DNA of 64,000 nt from Methanobacteriota archaeon (lineage in GTDB: Archaea; Thermoplasmatota; Poseidoniia; Poseidoniales; Thalassarchaeaceae), in the NCBI GenBank assembly GCA_002716085.1, contig PAYZ01000019.1, positions 11,649-75,648 on the forward strand. The letters run 5' to 3'. This document shows, piece after piece, positions 7,785-31,716 of the stretch. Under the pieces are notes generated by a model. It was not told the origin of the DNA, made no database searches, and was given only the letters and a program-made list of their open reading frames with translations. The stretch's first letter is position 1. Each line of letters opens with the position of its first letter. Both the position numbers and the translations under genes were made by a program.

Positions 7785-8372
7785 ATGGCAGTCAAAAGCT
7801 CCACAAAAAAAAGGCTAATTGAGTTAGGAATCCAAGAGGATCACGCCCATAAGCTCGCTGATGATGCCAATCTGGACACGATCAAAAGAATGTCTCGAGA
7901 ACAGGTGGCAAAAAAGGTCGGAGTAGAAGAAAACTCTTCCGAACTCGAGCACATCATGGGGGTAATTTCTGAGCATGTCGGATCAAGAAAGCGGAGCAAG
8001 AGTAACAGGATTACTATCTCTAGGAAGGCTCTCTTGGATGAAGACATCCCCACCGGAGACTACAGATTCAATGTCCTAAATCATGTTCTTGTGCCTCATC
8101 ACGAACTAGTCCCCATCGATTCCGAAGCAGAGATACTTGAGCCATGGGCCTTAACCACTGACGATGCATTCGGCACGGGAAGGCTGGCCAAGGAACTCCT
8201 TCCCAAAATTCTCATCACTGACCCTGCTATCCAGGCTATCAAAGAAATGGAGGAATTAGAAAACGACGAGCTCCCAGCGGGGTGGCTTGCAAACAGGGTC
8301 GTCAAAGTAGTTCGATATAGCAGATCTGCGGGAAGCTCCGAGGCATATCGGCTTATTGTAGAAACTACGTAA
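7785..8372 (+). CDS. rpoH: RNA polymerase subunit H (Rpb5-like) with ~90-aa N-terminal extension
   Basis: 195-aa ORF. The C-terminal about 100 aa is 'HVLVPHHELVP...EAEILEPW....LPKILITDPAIQAI...VVKVVRYSRSAGSSEAYRLIV'. It sits upstream of rpoB as in the conserved archaeal cluster. Confidence 0.9.
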   Translation: MAVKSSTKKRLIELGIQEDHAHKLADDANLDTIKRMSREQVAKKVGVEENSSELEHIMGVISEHVGSRKRSKSNRITISRKALLDEDIPTGDYRFNVLNHVLVPHHELVPIDSEAEILEPWALTTDDAFGTGRLAKELLPKILITDPAIQAIKEMEELENDELPAGWLANRVVKVVRYSRSAGSSEAYRLIVETT

Positions 8373-8385
8373 TATAGAAGGTGGA

Positions 8386-11300
8386 ATGATGAAAGAAATA
8401 GTTGAAAGTTACTTCAAGCAAAGGAGTCTGGTAAATCATCAGCTGGCTTCTTACAACGACTGTATTCCTGTTGGGGACGGAAAAGAGAGCAGAATGGAAA
8501 GAATCGTCAGAAACATCCGGATAGGCAGCGAAGAACAGGTTGAAGATGAGGAAGGCGGACTAGTAAAATTGGATCTCTTGGACAAGGAAATCATCGTTCG
8601 AATGAAGAATCTCAGACTGGGCCAGCCCACAATAAAGGAAGCAAATGGGGCTGAACACCCAGCGACACCCATGGAGTGTAGGATAAGGAAACTAACTTAT
8701 TTCTCCCCAGTTTACCTAGATTTCAAGATTTTTCGAGATGATCTCCCTCCTTCCCCGGGTTCTGAGATGGGCTTCCAAGAGGAACATAGCGTCCACATTG
8801 GAAACCTCCCAATTATGGTGAGGTCAGCGCGATGCAATCTTCACAGCAACCACATAGATGAGAATAGACGGCTCTCCCCTGATGTATCAGGGGAAGATTC
8901 TGAGAGGTATAAACATCAACTTAGAAAATCAGGAGAAGATCCCCTTGATCCTGGAGGATACTTCATAATTAACGGAACCGAGAGAGTTCTAATTTCTATG
9001 GAAGACCTAGCTCCAAACAGAGTCACGGTGGAGAAGAACAAGAAGTACGCTCACGAGACTCAAGTTGCCAAGATTTTCTCCCAGAAAGACGGGGTGAGGA
9101 AACCCCTCAATGTCGAGAAGAGGAGGGATGGGATGCTGATGGTGAAGATTCCAAGTGCAGGGACTACTCCTGTGCCTCTTGTCCTTCTGATGAGGGCACT
9201 TGGCGTGGAGAACGATAGGGAGATCTTCGCATCAATAGCCGGACCTCCAGAGGCAATGAAATTCACAGTTGCTAACCTTAACGACCTTCGTGATAATGAA
9301 GAGTATGGGGTTGATACTTCTGAGGAAGCTATGGCTTGGTTGGAGAAGAAGTTCGCCGCAGGGCAACAGAAGGAATACCGAGAGTCTAGGATACAAAATC
9401 TGCTGGATAACGAGCTCCTCCCTCATCTCGGGTCATCAATCGAAAATCGGGAAAAGAAGGCCATTTTCCTAGGTCGAATAGCTAGACAGGTTCTGGAGAT
9501 GGCGATTAAGGACAAGGACCCGAATGACAAGGACCATTACGCAAACAAGAGGGTCAGGCTAGCAGGAGACCTCGTCGAGGACCTATTCAGAGTAAGCCTA
9601 CAACAACTCGCAAGGGATCTAAAGTACCAGCTTGAGAGGCACCACAACCGTAAGAGGGAACTAAGAATCTCTTCATGTCTACGCCCCGATGTCCTAACTA
9701 CCAAGATTATGCACGCACTAGCCACTGGAAACTGGGTCGGAGGAAGGTCTGGAGTAAGCCAGCTTCTTGACAGAACAACATATCTTTCTGCTCTCTCTCA
9801 CCTTAGAAGAGTAACTAGTCCCTTAGTAAGAAGCCAACCACACTTCGAGGCAAGAGACCTACATCCGACACAATGGGGTAGACTTTGTCCGAACGAAACC
9901 CCCGAGGGCCAGAACTGCGGCCTAGTCAAGAACGGCGCGCAAATGATAGACATATCCGAGGAGGTCTCTGAGAATGACGTGAAGGAACTTCTGAGAGAAG
10001 CTGGGGTGGACGACGATCCCGATGGATGGGCAGACGGATCTAGAATCCACGTCAACGGAGATATTTTCGGTTTACACAAAAGGCCTCACAAGCTTGTCAG
10101 TCAGTTCAAGAGTAGGAGGCGCTCAGGAAGAATAAGGCCAGAGGTAAGTATCAGGCACGACCTAGAAAATAGGGACGTATTCATCAATACAGATAGAGGA
10201 AGAATGCTACGTCCTCTTCTGATTATAGATCATGGAAGTCTACAGATAACTAAGATGCATCTAGAGGGACTAAATTCGGGTGAGATTTCGTTCGCTGATT
10301 TGGTCTCTGGGGGAGTAGTTGAGTGGGTCGATGCTGAAGAAGAAGAAGACCTTCTTATTGCCCCTCGGCCGTTCGATCTTCCATCTATTTCTCCGAAATA
10401 CAAGCGCCCGATCAACCCATCAATGGTCGAATGGTCGAACTTGGGAGAACATGGAATATCTAACGCGGATTTAGTCGCCAAAGTGAAGATGCCGAATGGA
10501 GAAACCAAAACCGAGAAATTCAAAGTTCCATTAAATTACTTCCAGGACAACATTGACTCCCTAAAGAGGAAGGAGAAGAAAGACAAAACAGTACTAATCT
10601 ACACTCACGTTGAGATAGATCCCCAGCTTATCCTTGGGGTATGCGCATCATTGGTACCCTATCCGGAGCATAACTCCACACCAAGAGTGACCGGGGGAAC
10701 AGCAATGGTCAAGCAAAGCCTCGGCGTTGCGAGTGCAAACTTTAGACTGAGGCCGGACACTAGGGCCCATGTTATGCACTATCCTCAGCGATCAATTGTG
10801 GGCACTAGGGCCATGCAATCTACTAACTTCGATCAGAGGCCGGGAGGGCAGAACTTCGTAGTGGCTATAGTGAGCCATCATGGATACAATATGCAGGATG
10901 CTGTAATCATGAACCGAGCATCCGTTGAGAGGGCACTTGGACGATCTGCTTTCATTAGGACCTATAATGCAGAGAATAAGAGATTCCCAGGAGGCCAGGA
11001 GGAAAGGATCGAGGTTCCCGGTACCGGTTTGGATGAGATCAAAGGATTGAAGTCATGGGATTCATATTCTCACTTAGAAAGAGACGGACTACCAGTTCCC
11101 GAAGTTGAACTAACTAGCGAAGAGGGAGGTAGGTCCATCCTCGTTGGAAAGACTAGCCCGCCTCGATTCTTGGAAGAAGCTCATGGGGCATTCCTCCAAG
11201 CTCAGGAGAGAAGGGAATCTTCCATGCTCGTTCGCCATGGGGAGAAGGGCTGGGTAGACAACGTGTTCGTAACAGAATCTCTAGACTCAGGGAGGCTGGT

Positions 11301-17088: not shown

Positions 17089-18051
17089 TTGGGTTCTCTT
17101 CAAAGTCCTTACCATCCTCTTGGAGTCATGGAAAGGGCATTGAGAGACCTCATAAATGCTCGATTATCAAATTTCAAACCATCTAATAGCTCTATTGTAA
17201 CCCACGGATTCTCTCTATTGGGAATGTCTGATTCTGTTCCTGAAATTGGAAAACACAATTCTGATGTGCACATTTGGCATGTTCCTAAGGGCATCCTGCC
17301 AATAACCTCCGGTGAATTCACGAGATGGGAATTGGACTCTCCTAGAGGTTTTCATTGGATTTTGAGTGAAAGACCGTTGCACATGGATCTCATCCCGGCC
17401 GAACAAAAAAATGTTGAGATTTGGGGGCCCGATGAGATATCGATGTTTATAGGAAAAGGAGTAATGGATGGTGATTTGGTAGCCAAATCACCGATTAAAA
17501 AGATGGAACATACAACTACTTTCCTAGACGAAGCTAACTCAATGAAGCAGAGCCAGTTATTGAGGCCCGTTGTGGACATTGCCACTTGGAAGACTCAAAG
17601 AGGAATGGAGCATTTGTCCTCGACCCCAGTTCTTCTTGAGGGAAGGATTTGGAGAGTTGAGGGTGAGATAATTGGGCCTAAAGATGAAATTGAGTTCGGA
17701 ATCTGGGACCTAATAGAAGATCCATGGTCATCAACTATAGTAGAGATGAAGGACACACTAGATCTAACTGAAGCACCAGATCTACGAATATTCCCCCCTC
17801 CACATGATTCATGGCTAACTCATGATGTTCTTATTTCGGAAGCAGCAAGAATTCTTGATGTCAGAAGAAGAAGTAACTCCCCAAACCCGGACAAAAAGGA
17901 TGCAGTTCGGAGCATGTTACTACAGAGGTGGAGGTTTAACAAAGACAGTGCTAGTTGCAAATCTTCACCAATGCATATTTCCGGCTGGCTGGTTCATTCA
18001 GAAAGAGAAAGCATTCTTCATGGAATTAATGGTAGACTTTACGAAACCTAA
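17089..18051 (+). CDS. hypothetical protein
   Basis: 320-aa ORF (alternative start at the internal Met, 'MERALRDL'). No recognised motif. It occupies the slot where NusA normally follows L30e. Confidence 0.5.
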   Translation: MGSLQSPYHPLGVMERALRDLINARLSNFKPSNSSIVTHGFSLLGMSDSVPEIGKHNSDVHIWHVPKGILPITSGEFTRWELDSPRGFHWILSERPLHMDLIPAEQKNVEIWGPDEISMFIGKGVMDGDLVAKSPIKKMEHTTTFLDEANSMKQSQLLRPVVDIATWKTQRGMEHLSSTPVLLEGRIWRVEGEIIGPKDEIEFGIWDLIEDPWSSTIVEMKDTLDLTEAPDLRIFPPPHDSWLTHDVLISEAARILDVRRRSNSPNPDKKDAVRSMLLQRWRFNKDSASCKSSPMHISGWLVHSERESILHGINGRLYET

Positions 18052-18944
18052 TTCCTCTGTAAAAGCATCAACTCTTCCGTGGAAAGGGTATCTCCTGACA
18101 TCAACTTTGACATCAAATCAGTCATTTCAACACGATCCTCGTCTTTGTCTTCACTCTTTGATCCTGAAAACTTGATAATATCCTGCATAGAATGAATACA
18201 TCGAAGGGAAATAATGTAATTGTTATGTAGTTTGTCGGCTTCATTTTTTGTGGCAGTAAGACGTACATGTTCTGAATTAGCCATTTCTCTAAGCCTATCC
18301 ACTTCATTTGAAAGCTCCATCATCAAAGAATGAGCTTCTTCTGACTCAGCAGAAGCTTTTGTCACCGCATCATGAGCCTTCTGTTGGCTTTTTTCCGCCA
18401 GTTTGACCTTCCTTAGAACGTTTGAACTGCTAGCTTCTTCTTGGGCCTTCAGATCGTTGTACTGACTCTGCAGCCTCTTCATCTTTGAGAAGAAATCTTT
18501 TTCCTTTTTGGGGCCAATCTGACCTGTTTGGTGCCTCCATTCGAGTTTATTCATCTGATCTCTAATCTTCCTTGAAGTTTGCCTATTTCCCTTCTTTCCG
18601 TTGCTAGAAATCTTTTCTGACGAATTCCTAAATTCTGACCTCAAACTCTTCAAGATCTGAGTCTTTTCTAGTCTAACTTTTCTGAGATCAGCGACCTTTC
18701 CATTCGCCTCGTTCCTGATGGCCTTCTGCTTCTGGACCTCTGTGATGAGCTCCTTTACCTGCCGATTAATTTCATTTCTCTTGTCAAGCTGACCCCTTAC
18801 TTTAGAATTCAACTCGTCACGCTTATCCTTGAAATCATTTAGCTTCTCTCCGACTTCATCTCTTTTCAACTCAAACATTCTTTGAACATTCGATTGATTG
18901 AGACTCATAGGCACACCTCGTTCCTTCGTGAATTGGATTCCCAT
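18048..18944 (-). CDS. long coiled-coil protein, COG1340-like (paralog 1)
   Basis: 298-aa K/E/R/N-rich heptad ORF. Contains 'KRDELNSKVRGQLDKRNEINRQVKELI', 'KLEWRHQTGQI' and the C-terminal 'TLSTEELMLLQ'. The family assignment is from memory. Confidence 0.65.
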   Translation of the reverse strand: MGIQFTKERGVPMSLNQSNVQRMFELKRDEVGEKLNDFKDKRDELNSKVRGQLDKRNEINRQVKELITEVQKQKAIRNEANGKVADLRKVRLEKTQILKSLRSEFRNSSEKISSNGKKGNRQTSRKIRDQMNKLEWRHQTGQIGPKKEKDFFSKMKRLQSQYNDLKAQEEASSSNVLRKVKLAEKSQQKAHDAVTKASAESEEAHSLMMELSNEVDRLREMANSEHVRLTATKNEADKLHNNYIISLRCIHSMQDIIKFSGSKSEDKDEDRVEMTDLMSKLMSGDTLSTEELMLLQRN

Positions 18945-18968
18945 TTAAGCAATACCGATAATATTTCT

Positions 18969-19937
18969 TTACTCCTTCCTAGCGGCAACATTGCCCTTTC
19001 TGCCACCTCTTCTCGACACCCCTAACTTTCTCTTCCTCTTCTTCTTGGGTCTCTTTTCTCCTTTGAGCAAATCCTTAGAGCCTTCGTTTGAATCTGCAAT
19101 AGAGGCAAATCCCCCCGATTCTAGCAAAGCCCCCATTTCTTCTGCGCTTAGAGGACCTCCAGTAGCTGCAATTCCACGGATTTCTGACATCTTTGCCCTA
19201 CCCGGTCTTCCTAATGCAATCTTTGAATAATCCTCGATTCTTCTAAGCTCCTTTCTCTCGTTACTAATGGAGATTTTTGTTTTTTCCAGCTTCATATCTA
19301 TCCTTGAAATGCTTTTGCTAACCTTCCTAATTTCTTTCCTGCTGACCTTTTCCTCGTCTAGACCTGCATCATCTTTCAACTCAGACAAAGTCTTTTTTGA
19401 CTTCTGTTTATTTTCGTCCAAAGAACCTGAGATATCCTTCATGCTGCTAACTCTTAACAGATATTCTCGATGAGATTCCTCGGCCTCTCTCTTCCTAATT
19501 ATCGATGCTTGAATCTCGAAGAATCTGCTAAAAGCAGCTAGTTCAGGATTTAGCATTGGAACTGCAGTAAGATCATTGTCAATCCTTGTTAATGCGTTGT
19601 ATGTATCACTCAACCATTCTTCTAGAATGTTCGAAGGGGGCGGTATGCATTTGTTGATGGCATCTCTCTTATCCCTATGTTTCTGAGCCTCCATTCTAGT
19701 TTTCCGGAATTCACCTAGTAATTTCTTCCGACCAGATCCCGACTCTTCCAATCCCCCTATTGCAGATCTGAGTGCCTTCACGATCATTACCTGATTCTTC
19801 CGCTCGTCCCTTAACTCGCCCATTTCAGAATTTAGAGATTTCAGAAAATCTTTCTTCTGACGAATTAATTTCTTCAACTCCTCATTATTGCGATCCTCCA
19901 GATCAGCCCATTTTGAATGAGTTTTATCATTATTCAT
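18969..19937 (-). CDS. long coiled-coil protein, COG1340-like (paralog 2) with basic C-terminal tail
   Basis: 322-aa ORF, coiled-coil throughout, with the tail 'KKKRKRKLGVSRRGGRKGNVAARKE'. It has an ATGA overlap with the upstream paralog. Confidence 0.65.
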   Translation of the reverse strand: MNNDKTHSKWADLEDRNNEELKKLIRQKKDFLKSLNSEMGELRDERKNQVMIVKALRSAIGGLEESGSGRKKLLGEFRKTRMEAQKHRDKRDAINKCIPPPSNILEEWLSDTYNALTRIDNDLTAVPMLNPELAAFSRFFEIQASIIRKREAEESHREYLLRVSSMKDISGSLDENKQKSKKTLSELKDDAGLDEEKVSRKEIRKVSKSISRIDMKLEKTKISISNERKELRRIEDYSKIALGRPGRAKMSEIRGIAATGGPLSAEEMGALLESGGFASIADSNEGSKDLLKGEKRPKKKRKRKLGVSRRGGRKGNVAARKE

Positions 19938-20773
19938 TCCTCCTCACTCCTTGTTTTCTTGGTGTTCTTGGAACGAGATCTTTTTGAAAATGTGGAAGGA
20001 CCACCATTTCTGACAGTATCTCTTCCCCTCAGCAGATCCTTGAATCCTGGGGCTATTTGGCCAAATCCTTCCTCGAGCCTTCTTTCCCAATGCCCTATTG
20101 CCTTGTCACTCTGAGATAATAGTTCTCTGGCCCTATCCAACTGACCTTTTATCTCTCTTAACTCTTCAGAGGCTGTAGAACTTTTTTCATACAGGGACTG
20201 TGCCCTTTCTACAGAATCAAGCATTCTCGAATGTGCTTTGTCCGCCTTTTTGAATAGCCTCGACATTTCTTTACTTTTGTCTATGTATTGCAACATATCC
20301 GGATTAGAGTCTTTTCTATCTTTGAGCCACTTATCATTCTCAGAAATTAGCACCCTTCTTCTCTCAAGCAGCTTTCTTTCAGACCTTTGATCTAGAGCAG
20401 AAGTTTGAATTTCATGCTCTAGTTTCTCAATCTCTTCAATTAGCTTCCTTTTCTTCCATTTCGGGTCAAGACTAATCATTCCTCCAGATTTGTTTAGCCT
20501 TTCTCTAATCTCCTTAATCTCTGAAACGATAATATTTGCTTTAATTTGCGCATCGTCTCGCTCGCCTTTCAGATTTGAGACCTTTTTGTTAGCAGCTTGA
20601 AAGGCTTCGGAGCCCCTCTCGACCTTCGGCGTCAATGAATCCTCTTCAGCTTCAAGATTCCTGATTACTCCTGGGAGGCTTTCTTTTAACATCAGCCTAC
20701 GCTTTAGAAGAGAGCTCGCCAACTCTTCAGGACCAACATTCAACAGAGCTTCCGTGTCCATTTCGTTCGGCAT
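19934..20773 (-). CDS. long coiled-coil protein, COG1340-like (paralog 3)
   Basis: 279-aa ORF. Contains 'NLKGERDDAQIKANIIVSEIKEIRERL' and 'IEKLEHEIQTSAL', plus a basic/Ser-rich end 'KRSRSKNTKKTRSEEE'. Confidence 0.65.
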   Translation of the reverse strand: MPNEMDTEALLNVGPEELASSLLKRRLMLKESLPGVIRNLEAEEDSLTPKVERGSEAFQAANKKVSNLKGERDDAQIKANIIVSEIKEIRERLNKSGGMISLDPKWKKRKLIEEIEKLEHEIQTSALDQRSERKLLERRRVLISENDKWLKDRKDSNPDMLQYIDKSKEMSRLFKKADKAHSRMLDSVERAQSLYEKSSTASEELREIKGQLDRARELLSQSDKAIGHWERRLEEGFGQIAPGFKDLLRGRDTVRNGGPSTFSKRSRSKNTKKTRSEEE

Positions 20774-20854
20774 CCCGGAAATGCATCCATTATAGCCCTA
20801 TTTGGAGCAGTTTTTTGGGGTTCATTGATACGATGACTTTACTAGGATGCCGCA

Positions 20855-22387
20855 ATGAAAGGATCAATCGAGAGATCGACTGCATTTTGCATAGTATTGC
20901 TCGCTTCCTTTTCTATCTGCATCATTTCTCCAGATCATACTCTGACCAATGGCCAAGATTTCGGAAAAATGAGCTCAGGAGATTCCAACTCGACTGCAAA
21001 TTTCAGTAGTTCTGGAGATTCTGGAATTGCAGTTTCGGGCGAGCCAGCATTTCTTGGGGACTCACTAATTGCTGCTGTACTTGTTTCCAATTCTGGTAAC
21101 TCTTCAGGCTCTGTTGATTTGAATCTAGAACATGTTTCTTCAGGTCAATTTTTCTCTGGAGAAAAAACTCTTATTTCTCCAGGCTCAACTAGGGAAATCG
21201 CAGCCAACTTCTCCCCAGTGGAAAAGGGACAAAATTTTTTCAGATGGTGGGTTTCTTCTGATGGTGGGAACATCAGCTCCACTCTATTCGGAGAATTTTC
21301 CATTGAAGCTTACGATAGTCAGGATATTTTTCTTAGCCTAGAATCTTACGAGTGGTCAGATGAGCTAGGCCTAGAAGTTTCAATTTCAGTAATTCTTTCT
21401 CCTGGAAAGTCTAGGAATATCGATCTCATTCTTTCGAAAGAGCATGGGGGGGCCACTTCTCAATTACAGAGTATTTCAGTCAAACTTGACCCTGGGAAGA
21501 GGGATCTAAATTTCGAGCTAGGAAATCCGCAGTTAGATTCGATTCACATCGAAGCAGTTCCAATAGGATGGGCTCATTCTTCAAACTCCACAGATTCATC
21601 ATTTATGCCTGTCGAATTACCCTCATTGGACCCCTCTATGCTTTCGGTTGAGGCAACATTCAGTCCCGAGATGCCAACTTCCGGGGAAAGAGTTGTAGCA
21701 AAAATTTCACTTTCGAACTCGAATGAATTCCAGGCAGAAGCCGGAAAGGTCAGAGTAATTCATTCCTCTGACAAAACAATTCTAGCAGAGACATCCGTTC
21801 AATCAGTTAATCCCGGATCAACAGTAACTAGCGATGTCGCAGTACAATCATGGCCCGGTGGTGATAGAATTGAGTTGGAGGTCCAATGGTCAACTGGAGA
21901 AGTATCTTCAGAGAAGTTTTTCTCTGTAAACTCACAAGTGGAGGATCCACTAATTGACGTACCCTTCGATATCGTCTCCGCAGGTTTTGGCATTCTTGCT
22001 GGTTCGATGTCAATAATGGTAGGCACACTAATTTGGAGAGCCGTTTCAACAAGGACCCCCACTACTTCCGATGAAGGATTGAGAGAAACAAAGGAGCGCT
22101 CTGAGAGCCAGTCAAGAAAGGAGAAATCAGAAATTTCCTGCACCCACTGTGATCAAAGATTGATGGTGCCCTCGGGACACGTTGGGGCAGTTAGGTGCCC
22201 TTCATGCACGATGGAGTTCAAGGTAGGGGTAGCGGAAGAATCGAAAGTCGTTGTTCGTTCAAAAGAGGATATACTAAATTGTCCCGAATGCGACCAAGCA
22301 CTCAGGGTTCCTATTGAAAAGAGACCAGTTATGTCTAGATGCCCTGTTTGCAAGATTGAGTTCATGGCAGAGTCTGAGGTGATGTAA
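20855..22387 (+). CDS. signal-peptide / beta-sandwich-repeat (CARDB-like) / single-TM protein with two cytosolic zinc ribbons
   Basis: 510-aa ORF. It has the signal 'STAFCIVLLASFSICIISP', three repeats of an 'N.G..sg.v.l....PGST..v...' type, the TM 'VSAGFGILAGSMSIMVGTLIW', then 'CTHCDQRLMVP...VRCPSCTMEF' and 'CPECDQALRVP...SRCPVCKIEF' (MJ0042-like fingers). Confidence 0.65.
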   Translation: MKGSIERSTAFCIVLLASFSICIISPDHTLTNGQDFGKMSSGDSNSTANFSSSGDSGIAVSGEPAFLGDSLIAAVLVSNSGNSSGSVDLNLEHVSSGQFFSGEKTLISPGSTREIAANFSPVEKGQNFFRWWVSSDGGNISSTLFGEFSIEAYDSQDIFLSLESYEWSDELGLEVSISVILSPGKSRNIDLILSKEHGGATSQLQSISVKLDPGKRDLNFELGNPQLDSIHIEAVPIGWAHSSNSTDSSFMPVELPSLDPSMLSVEATFSPEMPTSGERVVAKISLSNSNEFQAEAGKVRVIHSSDKTILAETSVQSVNPGSTVTSDVAVQSWPGGDRIELEVQWSTGEVSSEKFFSVNSQVEDPLIDVPFDIVSAGFGILAGSMSIMVGTLIWRAVSTRTPTTSDEGLRETKERSESQSRKEKSEISCTHCDQRLMVPSGHVGAVRCPSCTMEFKVGVAEESKVVVRSKEDILNCPECDQALRVPIEKRPVMSRCPVCKIEFMAESEVM

Positions 22388-23041
22388 ATGACGGATTTCT
22401 CCGAGAACGAAGAAATGTATTTGAAGAGGATTTTTGAGATACACAGCGAATCACCAGGGGACATTGTAAAGACTACTCAATTGTCAGAAAAAATGGGCAT
22501 TAGCCCTGCTTCAACTACTGAAATGATCCAAAGACTCTCAGAAAGAGAAATGATTACTCACATCCCATATAGGGGATTCAGACTTACCCCAGAGGGTTTC
22601 CAATTAGCTGCTAGGATAAAGAGGAGGGAGGTATTGCTACAGATCCTACTATCCGATATAGTCGGCTTCCAGGGAGATGTGGAGAGCGTCGCTTGCAAGA
22701 TGGAACACGCAGTTGGAAAAGAACTCGAAACAGCACTGGACCGTCTTCTCGGTTACCCTCAAAGGGCCCCAGACGGCTCATCAATACCATCCATGCAGAG
22801 GGATTTCCACAAGATAGGGATAGGAACGCTTCTTCCTATCGGAAAATTACCTGAAGGATACTCGGCATCCGTTGAGTTGATAATTGTTAACGAACCTGAG
22901 AAGGTTACCATTAGAGAAGCGGGAGTCTCAGTTGGATCAGAAATTACTAACTTGGGAGGGAAACTTACATGCTCAGGCAGCAGCCTGGATTTTTCTAGAG
23001 AGATTGGCATGAAGATTATGGCTAGGGTTAGCTCATTGTAG
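22388..23041 (+). CDS. DtxR/MntR/IdeR-family metal-dependent transcriptional regulator with C-terminal FeoA/SH3-like domain
   Basis: 217-aa ORF whose ATG directly follows the previous stop. The wHTH region is 'VKTTQLSEKMGISPASTTEMIQRLSEREMI...RGFRLTPEG', followed by a dimerisation helix 'RREVLLQILL'. Confidence 0.85.
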   Translation: MTDFSENEEMYLKRIFEIHSESPGDIVKTTQLSEKMGISPASTTEMIQRLSEREMITHIPYRGFRLTPEGFQLAARIKRREVLLQILLSDIVGFQGDVESVACKMEHAVGKELETALDRLLGYPQRAPDGSSIPSMQRDFHKIGIGTLLPIGKLPEGYSASVELIIVNEPEKVTIREAGVSVGSEITNLGGKLTCSGSSLDFSREIGMKIMARVSSL

Positions 23042-23050
23042 GTCGAAATC

Positions 23051-24628
23051 ATGGAAGAAAACTCCGATCTAAGAACCTTGGTAGACATCGAGTCTGACAT
23101 CGAGGATATGGTTGCAGCACTCGAGTCAGAAACCCCCCCTGCTCCAGAAATAAACAAGATGATCAAGGAAGAATCGAAATTTGAAGAAAGAGAACTCAGG
23201 GATTCTCTCAAGAATCGAGAAGCTATACTCTCGGGGCTAGACGATCTCCTAATCAGCAGAGGTGCAAGATTAGTTCTATTCTTGCCAATCTTTGTCATTT
23301 TCCTTTTTGGTTTGGCCCAGTCGTACAGGGGCGCAGATCCTGAGTGGTGGGAAGGTAGTGTTCGAGAACTTTTCTTCGGCCTATCGTTTTCTAAGTCAGT
23401 ATATCTTCTGTCCCTAGTGATTATGGTTGCAGATCTCGTACTATTGTTTATCCTTCATTATCTATTATGGCTTACACGCAAAATCTTCCAGATTGATACT
23501 GATGAAATTACATCCTCTGGAGTTACTTTCCGCAGTGCTCATGGATATAGCGAGATGAGGGCAGTAATCGAGGGGGCCTCAAATCAGCTAAATCTAACTA
23601 CATCCCTTATGGTTCTAGCAACATTGCTTCTTTCTGTTGCACTTAATTTCTCCACAGAAACCCAAGGTGTTCCTGTCCTAATTGCTCTTTCTACTGGTGC
23701 TCTACTTTCCGGTCACAGCGTATACATGGTGTCCGAGAGGCCTCGTTTCAACACAGTAAACCCATGGGGCCTGCTTGATTCATTTTCCCCACCCATTCAT
23801 CCAGCTCTGCTTAACAAGCCATTCACAGACGTAATCAGGGCACATGTAGATCCATTGCTCGCAGTAAGATTTTCGAAATATGTCTCATCATTCAATAGTG
23901 ACTTGAAGAAGGGAGTCTCCCTTTCAGATCTCCAGGAATACCTCCTTCAGATGCTCGATATGTTCAGATCCGGGGTGATTAGTGAGGAGGATTTCCACAT
24001 AGCACTGTCTACCATGGTAGATACCAAGACAATAGATCAAATAATCAATCATCCTGAACTGGGAGAAGAGACCTTGGACAGGCTTCTAGTGCATGCAAGG
24101 GAAAGGTGCGCCCCATTTTTCCGACTTAATGACAGACTAAGGATGCACTTAGCTAGCCCTTCAAAACATGCAATCTGGTTCGATGTTGATATGGAGAATC
24201 TTACCTTCGGTCATGCAAACTTATTCGCCTACATTTTGAACCAAACACCCGATCCACAGGACTTGATACTAAGGGTGCAGACTCCAGACTTCAGACCTAA
24301 TGAGTGCGTATACAGGATAAGGGCCGAACCTCTAGATTCCGAGTCATTTGCTAGCTACACTGTTTACGATAAAGTATCAAACTCAATGATTTCTTCACGG
24401 ATTATTTGGCAATCTCTCATTCCATCTTCAATGGGTGAAGCTACTGTGACTGTAAGGCTTGAGGACTCATCTGGAAACCTGATTTCAGGAAAAGTCCTAA
24501 CCGCCCAAATTCGTTCAGACCTATTTACTCGACTAAGAATGACAACTGGGGCCATATTCATGCTAGGCGCCGCATTGGCGTTAATTTCCCCTATTTTACC
24601 ATTCGCCGCTGGAATATTGGGACTTTAG
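23051..24628 (+). CDS. polytopic membrane protein with large soluble domain, unknown function
   Basis: 525-aa ORF. An acidic N-terminus is followed by about 5 TM helices, a roughly 250-aa soluble region and a terminal TM, 'AIFMLGAALALISPILPFAAGILGL'. Confidence 0.6.
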   Translation: MEENSDLRTLVDIESDIEDMVAALESETPPAPEINKMIKEESKFEERELRDSLKNREAILSGLDDLLISRGARLVLFLPIFVIFLFGLAQSYRGADPEWWEGSVRELFFGLSFSKSVYLLSLVIMVADLVLLFILHYLLWLTRKIFQIDTDEITSSGVTFRSAHGYSEMRAVIEGASNQLNLTTSLMVLATLLLSVALNFSTETQGVPVLIALSTGALLSGHSVYMVSERPRFNTVNPWGLLDSFSPPIHPALLNKPFTDVIRAHVDPLLAVRFSKYVSSFNSDLKKGVSLSDLQEYLLQMLDMFRSGVISEEDFHIALSTMVDTKTIDQIINHPELGEETLDRLLVHARERCAPFFRLNDRLRMHLASPSKHAIWFDVDMENLTFGHANLFAYILNQTPDPQDLILRVQTPDFRPNECVYRIRAEPLDSESFASYTVYDKVSNSMISSRIIWQSLIPSSMGEATVTVRLEDSSGNLISGKVLTAQIRSDLFTRLRMTTGAIFMLGAALALISPILPFAAGILGL

Positions 24629-24662
24629 TCTTCTTCAATAAGGGGACTCTTATCCCGATAGT

Positions 24663-25649
24663 GTGGACCAAGGGGGACAGCCTGTTGATGACCTAAGGAC
24701 TAGGTTGCACGCTATGGAGTCTAAACTCAGAAGGATGAGGGATCAGAGGAACTCTCACAATGAGTCCGCAAAAAGGTCCTCTGACTCCAGGAACTCAGTT
24801 AACTCACAGGGAAAGGAACTGAGGGAGATAATCAACTCTAGGATGGAAGATCAGAAGGAAACCCGTGCCCAAGCAAAAATACATCAAGCTCGAAGGGATG
24901 AGATTCAGAAAAGCATTCGAGATCTTGTCTCTAGAAAAAGAGGAAAGAGAGATGATAGCCCTGGAAAGTCTGTGGTAATCCAACTCTCTGAGACAGTCGG
25001 TGAGATTGAGAGAATTGAGAACAGGATTATGACTGATGGTACTCTTTCTTTAGACAAGGAGAACTCATTGATAAAAAAACTCAAGTCTCTAATTTCCAGA
25101 AGGGACAAACTAATTCCTGACGTCGAGGAACATCAGATAATTTCTATTGACCTTAGCGATATGGATGAGTCGATTCAGAAGCTAAGAGCCGAGGCCGATA
25201 ACGAGCATAGCCTTATGATTGAACAGAACAAATTGGCAGACGATATTTGGCTAGAAATCAAGCCAATGCTTGAGGAAAGAGACTTCCTTCGAGGGGAGGG
25301 CGACAGATTGCACTCAATCTACTTAGAAGAGAGGGCCAAGGCAGATGAGGTTCACCAAGACATTGTAGAAATGCTTTCAAAAGTCAACGAGATAAGAGAC
25401 GAGATCAGATCCCAGAATGAACGGAGGGAGAGAACTATTCGTGAGCACAACGAGTCAGTAAGACAGGCTCTCAGAGGTCCGGACGAAGATGAAGAGCTAG
25501 CTGACTCTTTGTCAGAGAGATTGTTGGATGGCAAATCGATTAAATTCGGAGGAATCGTCTCTTCAGATAACACCATACAACAATCCAGCACTGGGAGAAA
25601 GAAAAGAACAACTAGGAAGCTGGGCACAACTAGGGGGAGAAAGAGATAG
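24663..25649 (+). CDS. long coiled-coil protein, COG1340-like (paralog 4) with basic C-terminal tail
   Basis: 328-aa ORF with a GTG start. Contains 'RMRDQRNSHNESAKRSSDSRNSVNSQGKELREII' and 'IERIENRIMTDGTLSL', and the tail 'GRKKRTTRKLGTTRGRKR'. Confidence 0.65.
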   Translation: MDQGGQPVDDLRTRLHAMESKLRRMRDQRNSHNESAKRSSDSRNSVNSQGKELREIINSRMEDQKETRAQAKIHQARRDEIQKSIRDLVSRKRGKRDDSPGKSVVIQLSETVGEIERIENRIMTDGTLSLDKENSLIKKLKSLISRRDKLIPDVEEHQIISIDLSDMDESIQKLRAEADNEHSLMIEQNKLADDIWLEIKPMLEERDFLRGEGDRLHSIYLEERAKADEVHQDIVEMLSKVNEIRDEIRSQNERRERTIREHNESVRQALRGPDEDEELADSLSERLLDGKSIKFGGIVSSDNTIQQSSTGRKKRTTRKLGTTRGRKR

Positions 25650-27577: not shown

Positions 27578-28474
27578 ATGGCCAAGGGAGCATCGGCAAG
27601 GGCAGCGGCTAGAAGGCAGAAGGACAAGTGGAAGGCAAAGCGATGGTACTCAATTAGGGCACCAAGGAACCCTTGGTCATTCAGGATTATTGGGGAGACA
27701 CTAGCTGAGGAAGGAGAAATGCTTGTTGGAAGGCCATTTGAGCTAATGCAGAATGAGCTGGATGGAGATTTCTCCAAAATGCACGTAAAAATTAGGTTTC
27801 GGATTAAGGAAGTCATAGGAAATGACGCAATTACTGAATTCGTCGGTCATGATGTGATGAAGGATTACGTTAGAAGGCAGATTCGTAGGGACAGAGGAAA
27901 GATAGATGATACAATAGATGTGGTTACCGAGGATGGCTACTTCATCAGGATTAAACCATTCATTGTTACTAGATCCAGAGTCAAATCTAGCCAGAAGCAA
28001 GAGACTAGAGCCGTAGCAAGGAATGAGGTAATAAAATTCTGTGCCAAGTCGACTTGGATTTCAGTGCAGAATGCTCTGATGGATGGTTCCATGGAGGATT
28101 TGGTATCCAAGGCCGTATCTAAGGTTCAACCAGTTAGGGCAGTCTTCTTCAGGAGGAGCCAGTTAATCCAAGAAGGCGTAGTTATTGATGATGGACCCAC
28201 ATTGGAAGAGGTCAAAGAAGACGAAAAGAATGCCATTGAGGAAGAGGCCAATGACGATCAAATGGAAGACGAACCACTTTCCGATGAACTCCAAGAAACC
28301 GGAGATGAGGTCGAAACAGTAAGTGAAGAACATGCGGACGAAGATGGCGAAGAATCCGACGATGAGATAGATTACGAATCAATGACCGTAGCACAGCTAA
28401 AGGATCTCCTAAAGGAAGCAGGAAAGCCAGTTTCAGGTAAGAAGGCCGACCTGATCTCCAGACTCTCGGAGTGA
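27578..28474 (+). CDS. rps3ae: 30S ribosomal protein S3Ae (eS1) with acidic + SAP-domain C-terminal extension
   Basis: 298-aa ORF with AAGGAG 9 nt upstream. It has 'KDKWKAKRWYSIRAP' and the eS1 core. The last about 95 aa form an acidic tract followed by 'MTVAQLKDLLKEAGKPVSGKKADLISRL'. Confidence 0.9.
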   Translation: MAKGASARAAARRQKDKWKAKRWYSIRAPRNPWSFRIIGETLAEEGEMLVGRPFELMQNELDGDFSKMHVKIRFRIKEVIGNDAITEFVGHDVMKDYVRRQIRRDRGKIDDTIDVVTEDGYFIRIKPFIVTRSRVKSSQKQETRAVARNEVIKFCAKSTWISVQNALMDGSMEDLVSKAVSKVQPVRAVFFRRSQLIQEGVVIDDGPTLEEVKEDEKNAIEEEANDDQMEDEPLSDELQETGDEVETVSEEHADEDGEESDDEIDYESMTVAQLKDLLKEAGKPVSGKKADLISRLSE

Positions 28475-30566: not shown

Positions 30567-31088
30567 TTAGAAGAACTCTTTTTGCAACTCTTCAATCTCT
30601 AATCTAGATACGGCCTTAGAGTATGCTTCGAGGGGTTCTCTATTCAACTCCAGAAACTGACTTCCGAATTTGAATGGCTGTAGCACTTCTTTAGCCTGAG
30701 TCCAGTTTCCAAGTATTGCTAATGATGCTGCAACAGATTCTGCGGAAGAAAGCCTCCCTACTTTGCCCCAAGATACTGGGTTAGCAGCAAGAAGTGATGG
30801 CAAAACTCTACCGCTAAGCCTAGTGCTTTTGGCAATTTGTGCTAATGACTCATCAATAGCTTTCCATGAGCAATCTAGAACAACTATCGAGGCACCTAGG
30901 CCTATCAAACTATTATCTTCTGGACCTAGCAAGACTGTTGACCTTGGATCCAGTAGATATCCCCTCTTCGGTGCCGAAGTTGGCGAAGAATGAATGGAAA
31001 CAAGGCCCAATGAGTGCATCTTTCTTGATGTGCATTTACTTGGATCATCCTGGTCAAGGTGAATAACATGAACAGGGATTTCTTCCAA
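30567..31088 (-). CDS. tsr3: 16S rRNA aminocarboxypropyltransferase Tsr3
   Basis: 173-aa ORF. 'HLDQDDPSKCTSRKM' and 'VVLDCSWK' are typical of Tsr3/DUF367. Confidence 0.85.
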   Translation of the reverse strand: MEEIPVHVIHLDQDDPSKCTSRKMHSLGLVSIHSSPTSAPKRGYLLDPRSTVLLGPEDNSLIGLGASIVVLDCSWKAIDESLAQIAKSTRLSGRVLPSLLAANPVSWGKVGRLSSAESVAASLAILGNWTQAKEVLQPFKFGSQFLELNREPLEAYSKAVSRLEIEELQKEFF

Positions 31089-31091
31089 TTT

Positions 31092-31655
31092 CTATCTCCT
31101 GGAACGCGCTCCCGATCTTGATACCCCTAGTCTACGAGTTTTCTTCTTTGCCCTATTTACTCTTTCAGATTTAACATTGTCATTCTGAGCATCAGAAATA
31201 GTCATTTTTCGATCATTTTCAGAGGAAACAATTGTGTGGTTACTGGGAGCGCTCTCAACAAATAGTCTAACCCCAAGTTCCTTGGTGAATTTCTTCAATA
31301 GTGCGTCAGTTGGCCTATTTCCACTCTCAGCCTTCTGAATCACGGCGATCTTGACATTCATTTTTCTGGCGAGATCCTCCTGGGATAGCCCTTTCTCCTT
31401 CCTCGATACCCTAATTCTATTGTGGAAGTCTTGAGCCAGCTCCATTTCATCTTTGGTCATTATATCAACTCCGGAAACTCCCCTTCCAACTACGGAGCTT
31501 TCAGGTTCGCTTTGTGACTCATTTCTAGTAACAGTTCTTTCGACAACCAGACTCATTGAATCAATACACCGAATACAACATTCTAGTTTAGACTGGGAAA
31601 CCATTGCCTGCCTTGTGGATACTCCTTCAGCACCACATAGCTCGCACGCGCCCAT
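31092..31655 (-). CDS. mbf1: archaeal multiprotein-bridging factor 1 (zinc ribbon + XRE HTH) with basic C-terminal tail
   Basis: 187-aa ORF. N-terminal 'CELCGAEG...CCIRC', the HTH 'LSQEDLARKMNVKIAVIQKAESGNRPTDALLKKFTKELGV', and the tail 'RAKKKTRRLGVSRSGARSRR'. Confidence 0.85.
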   Translation of the reverse strand: MGACELCGAEGVSTRQAMVSQSKLECCIRCIDSMSLVVERTVTRNESQSEPESSVVGRGVSGVDIMTKDEMELAQDFHNRIRVSRKEKGLSQEDLARKMNVKIAVIQKAESGNRPTDALLKKFTKELGVRLFVESAPSNHTIVSSENDRKMTISDAQNDNVKSERVNRAKKKTRRLGVSRSGARSRR

Positions 31656-31716
31656 GCCATGCCCAGTATGGATGCTAACATGACTTCTTCGTAGGGGTCA
31701 TAAGTACCCATTAATC

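What the first reader, a model, noticed from the sequence alone, without database searches (positions are those of the whole stretch)
18048..25649. Uncharacterised 7-gene divergon: four paralogous coiled-coil proteins, two envelope proteins and a DtxR-type regulator
Two operons diverge from an 81-nt spacer (20774-20854).

Left arm (minus strand): three tandem coiled-coil genes of 279, 322 and 298 aa, joined by an ATGA overlap and a 24-nt gap.

Right arm (plus strand), in order:
- a 510-aa signal-peptide / CARDB-like-repeat / TM / double-zinc-ribbon protein
- a DtxR-family regulator whose ATG abuts the preceding stop
- a 525-aa polytopic membrane protein
- a fourth coiled-coil paralog of 328 aa

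The coiled-coil proteins resemble the archaeal COG1340 family. That family has no known function and, as I recall, is often mis-annotated as phosphoserine phosphatase. Paralogs on both arms, tight coupling and an embedded regulator suggest one co-regulated system of unknown function. It could be a cytoskeletal/envelope system or a nucleic-acid- or ribosome-associated one. This is the largest block in the window with no functional explanation.
Basis: partly seen in the sequence, partly recalled or inferred. Interest (0 to 1): 0.7.

Follow-up and report, generated by a model that had tools for sequence, protein, structure and literature searches.

The report
Expanded archaeal coiled-coil gene cluster
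A marine Group II archaeon carries four diverged copies of the most widespread uncharacterised archaeal coiled-coil protein, clustered with a zinc-ribbon-tailed surface protein and a metal-sensing regulator; in a sister lineage one copy is fused to a eukaryote-type RNA-tailing enzyme, the first concrete hint that the family acts on RNA.

Summary
The seven ORFs, their junctions and the divergent spacer are as described. Three coiled-coil genes belong clearly to Pfam DUF7121 (COG1340, very probably arCOG01159). That family occurs in ~94% of archaeal genomes, has no known function, and is often mis-named phosphoserine phosphatase. The 322-aa gene is a remote fourth paralog. cc298 models as one long antiparallel helical hairpin with no specific match in the PDB. 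It is not SMC/Rad50 and not PspA/ESCRT-III.

The block is conserved across Poseidoniales (MGIIa and MGIIb, more than 110 species-level loci) while both flanks change. Its core is the surface protein plus cc328 on one arm and cc279-cc322 on the other. The DtxR gene and the 525-aa membrane protein are missing in some lineages. In other archaea the family is a single gene among housekeeping genes.

In 74 of 80 MGIIa loci the cc322 ortholog carries an N-terminal TUT4/7/Cid1-type nucleotidyltransferase. Other family members are fused to NYN RNase, SAP, KH or SerB-like HAD domains.

Best reading (~0.4): membrane-docked coiled-coil rods that bind RNA or RNPs through basic tails, under metal-responsive control. 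The function is not shown.

The parts
18048..18944 (-). cc298: canonical DUF7121/COG1340 copy. It ends in the family motif SGDTLSTEELMLLQRN (18051-18098). The true start may be M13.
   Evidence: Pfam 54.9 bits. It scores 5e-40 against a profile of non-Poseidoniales members. The AF2 model has pLDDT 91 with helices 17-114, 124-139, 145-282 and 289-297. Shorter orthologs and gene calls are seen.
18969..19937 (-). cc322: remote DUF7121 paralog. It has an IPPPS..LEEWL break, the motif GGPLSAEEMGALLESGG (19110-19160) and a basic tail KKKRKRKLGVSRRGGRKG... (18972-19046). In MGIIa its ortholog is fused to a TUT/Cid1-type nucleotidyltransferase.
   Evidence: Ortholog alignment. hhalign 74% to cc298 and 54% to the canonical family, collinear and with the motif matched. 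E 2.5e-6 against profile A5. Fusion shown.
19934..20773 (-). cc279: diverged DUF7121 paralog with a basic tail ending in EEE (19937-19990). It overlaps cc322 by ATGA. The probable real start is at 20761 (275 aa).
   Evidence: hhalign to cc298 gives 94.9%, E 4.5e-8. Also.
20774..20854 (.). Divergent spacer with two conserved elements. TTATAG / ATAGCCCTAT (20790-20801) is read as the TATA-like element of the left arm. GGTTCATTGATACGATG (20819-20835) lies 20-36 nt upstream of the env510 ATG and is read as the right-arm promoter and/or an operator.
   Evidence: Alignment of 29 distinct MGIIb spacers. The right-hand element is unique in the window. Sequence read. MGIIa uses different conserved elements.
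20855..22387 (+). env510: surface protein. It has an N-terminal hydrophobic segment (20876-20932), an Ig-like/CARDB-like ectodomain, a TM helix (21965-22036), a basic linker and two cytoplasmic CxxC...CxxC zinc ribbons (22130-22222 and 22274-22363).
   Evidence: The zinc ribbons are the most conserved part (0.54-0.63 vs 0.41 for the ectodomain, over 94 orthologs). CARDB is above its cut-off in the MGIIa ortholog.
22388..23041 (+). DtxR/MntR-family metal-dependent regulator. Its start codon abuts the env510 stop. It is an accessory member of the cluster.
   Evidence: Fe_dep_repress 56.6 bits and Fe_dep_repr_C 61 bits. Best NCBIfam match is MntR. Primary-site residues C102, E105 and H106 are conserved in at least 90 of 93 orthologs. 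Absent from the cluster in L203.
23051..24628 (+). mem525: Poseidoniales-specific membrane protein. It has an acidic N-terminus, four TM helices (23261-23728), a helical region plus an Ig-like beta-sandwich soluble region, and a C-terminal TM helix (24533-24610). It is an accessory member of the cluster.
   Evidence: No Pfam or NCBIfam family. 303 homologs, all unnamed or 'hypothetical'. AF2 pLDDT 65. Foldseek gives only generic beta-sandwich matches. Absent in L203 and L205.
24663..25649 (+). cc328: diverged DUF7121 paralog with a basic tail RKKRTTRKLGTTRGRKR (25593-25646). In all lineages examined it is the last gene of the env510 arm.
   Evidence: hhalign to cc298 gives 96.7%, E 3e-10. E 5e-20 against the non-Poseidoniales profile. 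Gaps to the upstream gene are 34-60 nt in the MGIIb/MGIIa sets, about 40-90 nt in other lineages.

Best explanation
The block is a Poseidoniales-specific elaboration of the pan-archaeal coiled-coil protein DUF7121/COG1340 (very probably arCOG01159). One canonical copy (cc298) and three diverged paralogs (cc279, cc322, cc328) are each a long antiparallel alpha-helical hairpin rod. The three diverged copies have added conserved Arg/Lys-rich C-terminal tails.

Proposed mechanism:
- The rods assemble, probably as hetero-oligomers, at the cytoplasmic face of the membrane.
- They dock on the paired zinc ribbons of the env510 tail and, where present, on mem525.
- Their basic tails hold RNA or ribonucleoprotein.
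- In the sister family MGIIa the cc322 rod also brings a TUT4/7/Cid1-type terminal nucleotidyltransferase to that RNA.
- The embedded DtxR-type regulator ties expression of the right arm, and possibly both arms, to metal (Fe/Mn) status.

Shown: family membership, predicted fold, conserved linkage, domain fusions.
Inferred: every physical interaction, RNA binding, and the regulation.
For: Family and paralogy:
- Established.
- The cc298 model is a confident two-helix hairpin, pLDDT 91.

Linkage:
- All seven genes are in the same order in all 29 MGIIb-set loci that are long enough, and in the MGIIa set.
- In MGIIa both flanks differ: pdxS is mostly absent after cc328, and DUF1246/DUF1297-type and other genes lie between cc298 and rpoA2.
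- cc328 follows the env arm on the same strand at short spacing (34-60 nt in the MGIIb/MGIIa sets, about 40-90 nt in L203/L205), even where dtxR and/or mem525 are missing.
- The ATGA coupling of cc279 and cc322 is conserved in MGIIb (median gap -4); a single MGIIa locus (L056) also shows a 4-nt overlap.
- The cytoplasmic zinc ribbons are the best-conserved part of env510. This suggests an intracellular partner.

Nucleic-acid link:
- In 74 of 80 MGIIa loci the cc322 ortholog has an N-terminal MTPAP-like palm domain (4.8e-30) and a PAP_assoc domain (3.3e-11).
- Its best PDB relatives are TUT7 (2e-58), URT1 (1.5e-44) and Cid1 (4e-34).
- Its catalytic motifs are invariant across lineages that are only 36-46% identical.
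- Other proteins found with cc298 are fused to a NYN RNase, SAP or KH_2 domain.
- In other Thermoplasmata the canonical gene sits directly upstream of aMBF1, Sua5 and MetAP on the same strand.
- TK2157 lies upstream of arcS and was recovered in a chromatin fraction (PMC6393311, PMC7325993).

Regulator:
- The DtxR primary metal-site residues are conserved.
Against: - No interaction, RNA binding or regulation has been tested.
- This window's cc322 has no nucleotidyltransferase domain, and none is encoded in the 64 kb. The RNA-tailing link may therefore not apply to this organism.
- The NYN and KH fusion proteins come from short metagenomic contigs of unknown origin. Some may be gene-call artefacts.
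- Canonical family contexts disagree between phyla: translation genes in Thermoplasmata, but UppS-SMC-ScpA in Bathyarchaeia, Asgard and other Thermoproteati (TACK) lineages. That is typical of weak housekeeping linkage.
- Tandem paralogs stay adjacent by descent, and Poseidoniales are collinear around the RNA polymerase operon.
- No DtxR operator was found, and the spacer elements differ between MGIIa and MGIIb.
- An RNA platform has no obvious need for a surface protein with a large ectodomain.
Confidence: 0.4

Rival explanations
1. Two unrelated units are kept side by side by descent. The cc genes are tandem duplicates that perform whatever housekeeping role arCOG01159 has. env510-dtxR-mem525 is a separate metal-responsive envelope or transport operon.
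For: - Elsewhere the family is a single gene without these partners.
- dtxR and mem525 come and go.
- An iron-transporter-type VIT1 gene sits in the cluster of L204.
- MGIIb genomes are collinear well beyond the block.
- The DtxR metal site is intact.
Against: - cc328 is the terminal gene of the env arm at 34-60 nt in the MGIIb/MGIIa sets, about 40-90 nt in L203/L205, including lineages that lack dtxR and/or mem525.
- The block survives while both flanks change between MGIIa and MGIIb.
- The most conserved part of env510 is cytoplasmic.
- mem525 and env510 show no transporter signature.
Confidence: 0.25
2. A sub-membrane cytoskeletal or envelope scaffold. The rods polymerise under the membrane, are anchored by env510 and mem525, and have no nucleic-acid role. 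The basic tails bind anionic lipids.
For: - The rods are long, about 100-140-residue helices.
- The cluster encodes a membrane partner with an Ig-like ectodomain and conserved cytoplasmic ribbons.
- Only generic structural coiled-coil analogues were found.
Against: - The family is fused to a TUT/Cid1-type NTase, NYN RNase, SAP and KH domains.
- The canonical family is nearly universal in archaea with very different envelopes, and sits in housekeeping contexts.
- The tail motif RKLG[VT]SR.G is specifically conserved, beyond mere charge.
Confidence: 0.2
3. A chromosome-organisation accessory. The rods act with or like SMC-type coiled coils on DNA, tethering the nucleoid to the membrane.
For: - SMC and ScpA lie downstream on the same strand in 23 and 13 of 65 Bathyarchaeia, Asgard and other Thermoproteati (TACK) loci.
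- TK2157 was detected in a T. kodakarensis chromatin fraction and in a GINS pull-down.
- Some members are fused to SAP domains.
- The best Foldseek hit is an SMC arm, though only at E 0.011.
Against: - There is no ATPase head, hinge or hook.
- The Foldseek matches are generic hairpins.
- The chromatin and pull-down lists also contain ribosomal proteins and enzymes.
- The enzyme fusions are RNA-directed.
Confidence: 0.1

Closest known systems
DUF7121 (Pfam PF23435) = COG1340 'uncharacterized coiled-coil DUF342 family protein', very probably arCOG01159 (representative TK2157)
   Same: cc298 matches at 54.9 bits. cc279 and cc328 match a non-Poseidoniales profile. All are about 280-330 aa, all-alpha and basic. 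cc298 has the family C-terminal G-x-x-L-S-x-E-E-L motif, cc322 a GG.LS.EEM variant of it. They attract the same 'phosphoserine phosphatase' mis-naming, which HAD/SerB fusions explain (PMC6393860).
   Different: Elsewhere the family is one gene per locus in a housekeeping context. Here there are four copies, three with added basic tails, clustered with a zinc-ribbon surface protein and usually a DtxR regulator. The equation with arCOG01159 is inferred from its description and the SerB link. It was not tested on the TK2157 sequence.
SMC/Rad50 coiled-coil arms
   Same: Both are long antiparallel two-helix coiled coils. The top Foldseek hit is a Pyrococcus Smc arm segment (E 0.011, TM 0.41-0.50). 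SMC-ScpA is a neighbour of the canonical gene in some phyla.
   Different: These proteins have no ABC ATPase head, hinge or zinc hook. NCBIfam SMC/Rad50 scores are 9-21 bits against cut-offs of 567-1087.
Eukaryotic terminal uridylyl/adenylyl transferases (TUT4/7, URT1, Cid1, GLD-2)
   Same: The N-terminal half of the MGIIa cc322 ortholog has the full palm domain plus PAP-associated domain, with invariant catalytic motifs. Its nearest non-archaeal relatives are eukaryotic URT1-like proteins at 31-35% identity.
   Different: The domain is not present in this window. In MGIIa it is fused to a DUF7121-like rod with a basic tail, not to zinc knuckles or Lin28-interacting modules. It sits in an archaeon. 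No paper in the searched library links Marine Group II with such enzymes.
DtxR/IdeR/MntR metal-dependent repressors and their operons
   Same: The regulator has the winged-helix and dimerisation domains above Pfam cut-offs. The primary metal-site residues are conserved. It is embedded in the operon it may control.
   Different: Its partners are not recognisable metal transporters. Ancillary-site residues are replaced in the window copy. No palindromic operator is conserved across the order.
PspA/Vipp1/ESCRT-III membrane-remodelling helical hairpins
   Same: Both are helical-hairpin proteins that could act at a membrane.
   Different: No Pfam, PDB-sequence or Foldseek match to PspA_IM30 or Snf7. 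The hairpin here is about twice as long.

Membership tests
DUF7121 / COG1340 (arCOG01159) | Match to Pfam PF23435 at or above the gathering score (29 bits): cc298 | tested here: met
   54.9 bits, E 1.2e-14, covering profile positions 42-303 of 307.
DUF7121 / COG1340 (arCOG01159) | Match to the family profile: cc279 and cc328 | tested here: met
   Pfam 28.7 and 28.1 bits, just under 29, but listed as PF23435 hits in the precomputed annotation. E 4e-11 and 5e-20 against profile A7, built only from non-Poseidoniales members. No other window ORF hit that profile. hhalign to cc298 gives 94.9% and 96.7%.
DUF7121 / COG1340 (arCOG01159) | Match to the family profile: cc322 | tested here: inconclusive
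   No Pfam hit. No hit to A7. E 2.5e-6 to A5 within the window ORF set. hhalign 74% to cc298 and 54% to A7, collinear and with the C-terminal motif aligned. Coiled-coil composition can inflate such scores.
DUF7121 / COG1340 (arCOG01159) | All-alpha fold: one long antiparallel two-helix hairpin of about 290 aa | tested here: met
   AF2 model of cc298 with 46 family sequences: pLDDT 91, helices 17-114 and 145-282 plus short helices 124-139 and 289-297. Not modelled for the other three.
DUF7121 / COG1340 (arCOG01159) | C-terminal motif G-[EDG]-x-L-S-x-E-[ED]-[LM]-x-x-L | tested here: met
   cc298 has SGDTLSTEELMLLQRN. cc322 has GGPLSAEEMGALLESGG, followed by an added tail. The motif is degenerate in cc328 and cc279.
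DUF7121 / COG1340 (arCOG01159) | One copy per locus in a housekeeping gene context | tested here: not met
   There are four copies here. The 80 Thermoplasmata loci carry one canonical copy each (three also hold a partial or split fragment) and the 65 Bathyarchaeia, Asgard and other Thermoproteati (TACK) loci one each. This makes the block a variant of the family, not a typical member locus.
SMC / Rad50 | ABC ATPase head (Walker A/B) plus hinge or zinc hook flanking the coiled coil | tested here: not met
   Only the coiled-coil parts of the NCBIfam SMC/Rad50 models align, at 9-21 bits against cut-offs of 567-1087. No SMC_N or SMC_hinge in Pfam.
PspA / ESCRT-III | PspA_IM30 or Snf7 profile match, or a fold match | tested here: not met
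   No such Pfam hit at E<=1, none in PDB sequence or profile searches, and none among the 50 listed Foldseek matches.
DtxR / MntR regulators | N-terminal winged-helix DNA-binding domain plus metal-binding dimerisation domain | tested here: met
   PF01325 at 56.6 bits (cut-off 26) and PF02742 at 61 bits (cut-off 27). Best NCBIfam match is MntR at 83 bits, below its equivalog cut-off.
DtxR / MntR regulators | Metal-ligand residues | tested here: inconclusive
   Primary site: M10, C102, E105 and H106 are present in the window, and C/E/H are conserved in at least 90 of 93 orthologs. Ancillary site: H79, E83 and H98 are replaced by E, Q and E in the window.
DtxR / MntR regulators | Palindromic operator in a controlled promoter | tested here: inconclusive
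   The spacer has conserved elements, but no dyad is conserved across the order. A perfect palindrome, CCCACCCTTAAGGGTGGG, occurs in only one MGIIa subgroup.
CARDB / Ig-like surface repeats (env510) | Pfam PF07705 at or above 22.7 bits | tested here: inconclusive
   The window copy scores 19.8 bits. The MGIIa ortholog scores 36.1 bits.
MJ0042-type zinc ribbon (Zn_ribbon_4/5, DZR) | CxxC-(16-17 residues)-CxxC ribbon matching the profiles | tested here: inconclusive
   Two CxxC...CxxC units are conserved across the order. All Pfam scores are below their cut-offs.
Cid1/TENT terminal nucleotidyltransferases | Pol-beta-type palm domain with GS...DxD...D, plus the PAP-associated domain | tested here: not met
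   Absent from the window's cc322 and from all window ORFs. Present and conserved in the MGIIa orthologs.

The most novel reading that the evidence does not exclude
Paralogs of the most widespread uncharacterised archaeal protein form a membrane-tethered platform for RNA 3'-end handling in planktonic Marine Group II archaea. In MGIIa the platform is equipped with a eukaryote-type terminal uridylyl/adenylyl transferase. This would be an RNA-tailing or surveillance system of a kind not described in archaea. By extension, the pan-archaeal arCOG01159 protein would be an RNA/RNP-binding rod.
Probability: 0.2. Interest if true: 0.85.

Novelty: new variant of a known kind. Interest (0 to 1): 0.62.

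Why it matters
Makarova, Wolf and Koonin (PMC6393860) list arCOG01159 first among uncharacterised proteins conserved in all archaea (492 of 524 genomes). Its only lead there is a link to SerB.

The Poseidoniales cluster adds three testable handles:
- a dedicated membrane partner with conserved cytoplasmic zinc ribbons;
- conserved basic tails on the diverged paralogs;
- a stable fusion to a TUT/Cid1-type enzyme in MGIIa, together with NYN, SAP and KH fusions elsewhere.

If the RNA reading holds, it would give a function to a near-universal archaeal protein. It would also reveal eukaryote-type RNA tailing in one of the most abundant archaeal groups of the surface ocean. If it fails, the cluster still defines a lineage-specific envelope-associated coiled-coil system.

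Tried and rejected
- **aRDF.** I tested whether the family is the archaeal ribosome dimerisation factor. No PDB hit for a 46-sequence family profile, and the aRDF paper mentions no coiled coil. Dropped.
- **PDB searches.** Sequence and profile searches with cc298, the family profile, cc322 and orf320 gave only chance coiled-coil hits.
- **Foldseek, cc298 model.** No match better than E 0.01, all generic hairpins.
- **Foldseek, mem525 model.** The model is only moderate (pLDDT 65) and gave generic Ig-like sandwiches.
- **Bacterial-type scans.** The promoter/terminator scan, Rfam and tRNA scans found nothing relevant in the block.
- **Operator search.** The conserved right-arm element is unique in the window and not conserved in MGIIa. 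No DtxR-box-like dyad was found.
- **Stand-alone nucleotidyltransferase.** None in the window. Apparent 426-429-aa stand-alone copies turned out to be frameshift-split fusion genes in long-read assemblies. Whether MGIIb genomes encode one elsewhere could not be determined.
- **KH fusion (P0162/P0448).** Supported by only two metagenomic gene calls. Treated as weak.
- **Literature.** Searches for DUF7121, COG1340, TK2157 and 'archaeal coiled-coil protein' found no functional study.

Full report
**Observation**

The ORF table reproduces all seven genes at the stated coordinates and strands. Reading the junctions confirms each stated detail:
- the ATGA overlap of cc279 and cc322;
- the 24-nt gap before cc298;
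- the env510 TAA stop abutting the dtxR ATG;
- the 9-nt and 34-nt gaps before mem525 and cc328;
- the ATAGCCCTAT palindrome at 20792-20801.

Organism and neighbours:
- The window comes from a Marine Group II archaeon of the Thalassarchaeaceae/MGIIb type.
- Upstream lie rpoA1, rpoA2, L30e and an unknown 320-aa ORF.
- Downstream lie pdxS, a ferredoxin, S3Ae and, further on, Tsr3, aMBF1 and PAN.

One small correction concerns cc279. Orthologs and one gene call start it at M5 (ATG at 20761, 275 aa). That gives the 93-nt spacer typical of related genomes.

**What the proteins are**

- **cc298.** It matches Pfam DUF7121 at 54.9 bits.
- **cc279 and cc328.** They fall 0.3-0.9 bits under the Pfam cut-off in my scan. 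Both are DUF7121 in the precomputed annotation. Both hit a profile built only from non-Poseidoniales members, at E 4e-11 and 5e-20. No other ORF of the window hits that profile. Profile-profile comparison gives 96.7% for cc298-cc328 and 94.9% for cc298-cc279.
- **cc322.** It is much more distant. It has no Pfam hit, and hhalign gives 74% to cc298 and 54% to the canonical family. The alignments are collinear, and they place its GGPLSAEEMGALLESGG on the family's C-terminal GEKLSTEDLMxLQKAG motif. It shares the tail RKLG[VT]SR.G with cc328.
- **The regulator.** It is a DtxR/MntR-family protein.
- **env510.** It has an N-terminal hydrophobic segment, an Ig-like ectodomain, one TM helix and two cytoplasmic CxxC...CxxC ribbons. 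CARDB is sub-threshold here but above threshold in an MGIIa ortholog.
- **mem525.** It has five hydrophobic segments and no family. Its 303 detectable homologs are all unnamed or 'hypothetical'.

**Structure**

An AlphaFold2 model of cc298, built with 46 diverse family members, is confident (pLDDT 91). It shows one long antiparallel hairpin of helices 17-114 and 145-282, a short helix at the turn, and a short C-terminal helix carrying the motif.

Foldseek against the PDB finds nothing better than E 0.01. The matches are only generic hairpins: SMC arm, RipA N-domain and chemoreceptors. Sequence and profile searches of the PDB find nothing.

The mem525 model is only moderate (pLDDT 65). It has a helical membrane part, a helical region and an Ig-like sandwich, with no informative match.

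**What is known about the family**

- JGI names these proteins 'uncharacterized coiled-coil DUF342 family protein', which is the COG1340 label, or 'phosphoserine phosphatase'. NCBI also calls stand-alone 289-aa members phosphoserine phosphatase.
- A 2005 survey called COG1340 a highly conserved archaeal group of unknown function (PMC1322226).
- I found HAD/SerB-like plus DUF7121 fusion proteins, from a Methanocellales archaeon and from Methanolliviera. These explain the mis-naming and support equating DUF7121 with arCOG01159. I could not test that on the TK2157 sequence itself.
- For TK2157 the open literature offers three observations: detection in a chromatin fraction, detection in a GINS pull-down, and a partly thermosensitive transposon mutant upstream of arcS.
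- No functional study was found.

**Linkage**

- *MGIIb set.* Of 37 species-level loci found with cc298, all 29 that are long enough carry the seven genes in the same order and orientation. So do their flanks from rpoA1 to orf253. That alone would show only collinearity.
- *MGIIa set.* The 80 loci keep the same block while both flanks differ. pdxS is mostly absent next to cc328. DUF1246/DUF1297-type and other genes lie between cc298 and rpoA2.
- *More distant Poseidoniales contigs.* These show which parts are core:
  - L206 equals the window.
  - L205 lacks mem525.
  - L203 lacks both dtxR and mem525, yet keeps env directly followed by cc328 and facing cc279-cc322.
  - In several lineages a RimI-like GNAT, a small ORF and often a KaiC-like ATPase lie between cc322 and cc298. 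L204 also has Roadblock-like and VIT1 genes there.
- *Tight couplings.* They are conserved: cc279-cc322 median gap -4 nt, and cc328 34-60 nt behind the preceding gene in the MGIIb/MGIIa sets, about 40-90 nt in L203/L205.
- *Outside Poseidoniales.* The family is one canonical gene per locus. In 80 Thermoplasmata loci it is followed on the same strand by aMBF1, Sua5 and MetAP. In 65 Bathyarchaeia, Asgard and other Thermoproteati (TACK) loci it lies after a GPN-loop GTPase and an ACS-beta-like gene, and before DUF373, UppS, SMC and ScpA.

The cluster is thus an order-specific elaboration. Its core is env + cc328 | cc279 + cc322, the canonical cc298 lies nearby, and dtxR and mem525 are accessory.

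**Functional clues**

1. *Fusion to a nucleotidyltransferase.* In 74 of 80 MGIIa loci the cc322 ortholog is about 730 aa.
   - Its N-terminal 370 aa form a complete Cid1/TENT-type nucleotidyltransferase (MTPAP-like palm 4.8e-30, PAP_assoc 3.3e-11).
   - The closest solved relatives are TUT7 (2e-58), TUT4, URT1, CutA, Cid1 and GLD-2.
   - The motifs FGS, D.D, D.S.N, SSYAW and EDPF..HDL are invariant or nearly invariant among lineages only 36-46% identical. This argues for an active enzyme and an old fusion.
   - The nearest non-archaeal relatives are eukaryotic URT1-like proteins.
   - I found no paper connecting Marine Group II with such enzymes.
   - The window's cc322 lacks this domain, and none is encoded in the 64 kb.
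2. *Other fusions.* Other proteins retrieved with cc298 are fused to a NYN/Zc3h12a RNase, a SAP domain, a KH_2 domain or a NACHT NTPase. Several come from short contigs of unknown origin.
3. *Basic tails.* The three diverged paralogs carry conserved basic tails.
4. *Cytoplasmic ribbons.* The cytoplasmic zinc ribbons are the best-conserved part of env510.
5. *Spacer elements.* The spacer holds two conserved elements, each about 20-35 nt upstream of a start codon. These fit back-to-back archaeal promoters with near-leaderless transcripts. The right-hand one is unique in the window. MGIIa uses different elements, and only one subgroup has a perfect palindrome. A DtxR operator is therefore neither shown nor excluded.

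**Interpretation**

I favour, at about 0.4, membrane-docked coiled-coil rods that bind RNA or RNPs through their tails. In MGIIa they would be equipped with an RNA-tailing enzyme, and the system would be under metal-responsive control.

The rivals are:
- two unrelated units kept together by descent (0.25);
- a purely cytoskeletal or envelope scaffold (0.2);
- a chromosome-organisation accessory (0.1).

Homology, fold, linkage and fusions are shown. Every interaction, the ligand and the regulation are inferred.

The family itself is a known unknown. The four-paralog cluster, its membrane partner and the TUT-like fusion appear undescribed, so I rate it a new variant of a known kind.

Noticed in passing
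L056:6783-8975 (+) (MG-II chromosome CM001443.1) and 73 other MGIIa loci, L038-L117: The MGIIa ortholog of cc322 is a ~730-aa fusion. A eukaryote-type TUT4/7/URT1/Cid1-like terminal nucleotidyltransferase with invariant catalytic motifs is joined to the coiled-coil half. The nearest non-archaeal relatives are eukaryotic. No literature linking Marine Group II with such enzymes was found.
   Followed up: yes
window 17089-18051 (+): A 320-aa ORF with no Pfam, NCBIfam or PDB match is conserved across Poseidoniales directly after L30e. In many archaea NusA follows the rpoA2-L30e genes at this position (from general knowledge). Its 3' end overlaps the 3' end of cc298 by 4 nt, convergently.
   Followed up: partly
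L037:8290-9916; L202, L203 and L205 at about 8150-9870; L276 and L277 at about 9700-10600: In most other Poseidoniales lineages a RimI-like GNAT acetyltransferase and a ~100-130-aa ORF lie between cc322 and cc298, often with a KaiC/ArlH-like ATPase on the opposite strand. The window's lineage has only a 24-nt gap there.
   Followed up: partly
window 30567-32958; L118-L197: The window encodes Tsr3 (30567-31088, -), an aMBF1-like protein (31092-31655, -) and PAN (31726-32958, +) about 5-7 kb from cc328. In other Thermoplasmata the single canonical DUF7121 gene is immediately followed by aMBF1, Sua5 and MetAP on the same strand.
   Followed up: partly
P0198, P0204, P0205, P0256, P0209, P0186, P0162/P0448, P0202: Members of DUF7121 retrieved with cc298 carry several kinds of fused domain: HAD/SerB-like phosphatase (Methanocellales, Methanolliviera), NYN/Zc3h12a RNase, SAP, KH_2 and NACHT. 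The HAD fusion explains the widespread 'phosphoserine phosphatase' mis-annotation.
   Followed up: partly
L063-L117 subgroup, spacer between the env gene and cc279 (for example L070, L082): A perfect 8-2-8 palindrome of the form CCCACCCTTAAGGGTGGG (the two central bases vary) sits between the two divergent promoters in one MGIIa subgroup. It is a candidate regulator site. It is absent from MGIIb and from other MGIIa subgroups.
   Followed up: no
L204:7566-8942: In one Poseidoniales lineage a Roadblock/LC7-like gene and a VIT1-family (iron transporter type) gene with a rubrerythrin-like region are inserted in the left arm of the cluster, which also carries the DtxR-type regulator.
   Followed up: no
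window 27578-28474 (+): Ribosomal protein S3Ae carries a long acidic C-terminal extension that ends in a SAP domain (precomputed Pfam PF02037).
   Followed up: no
L207-L272 (Bathyarchaeia, Heimdall-/Helarchaeota, other Thermoproteati, Nitrososphaeria): The canonical DUF7121 gene is often followed on the same strand by DUF373, UppS, SMC and ScpA, and preceded by a GPN-loop GTPase and an ACS-beta-like ATP-grasp gene. This context differs from that in Thermoplasmata.
   Followed up: partly
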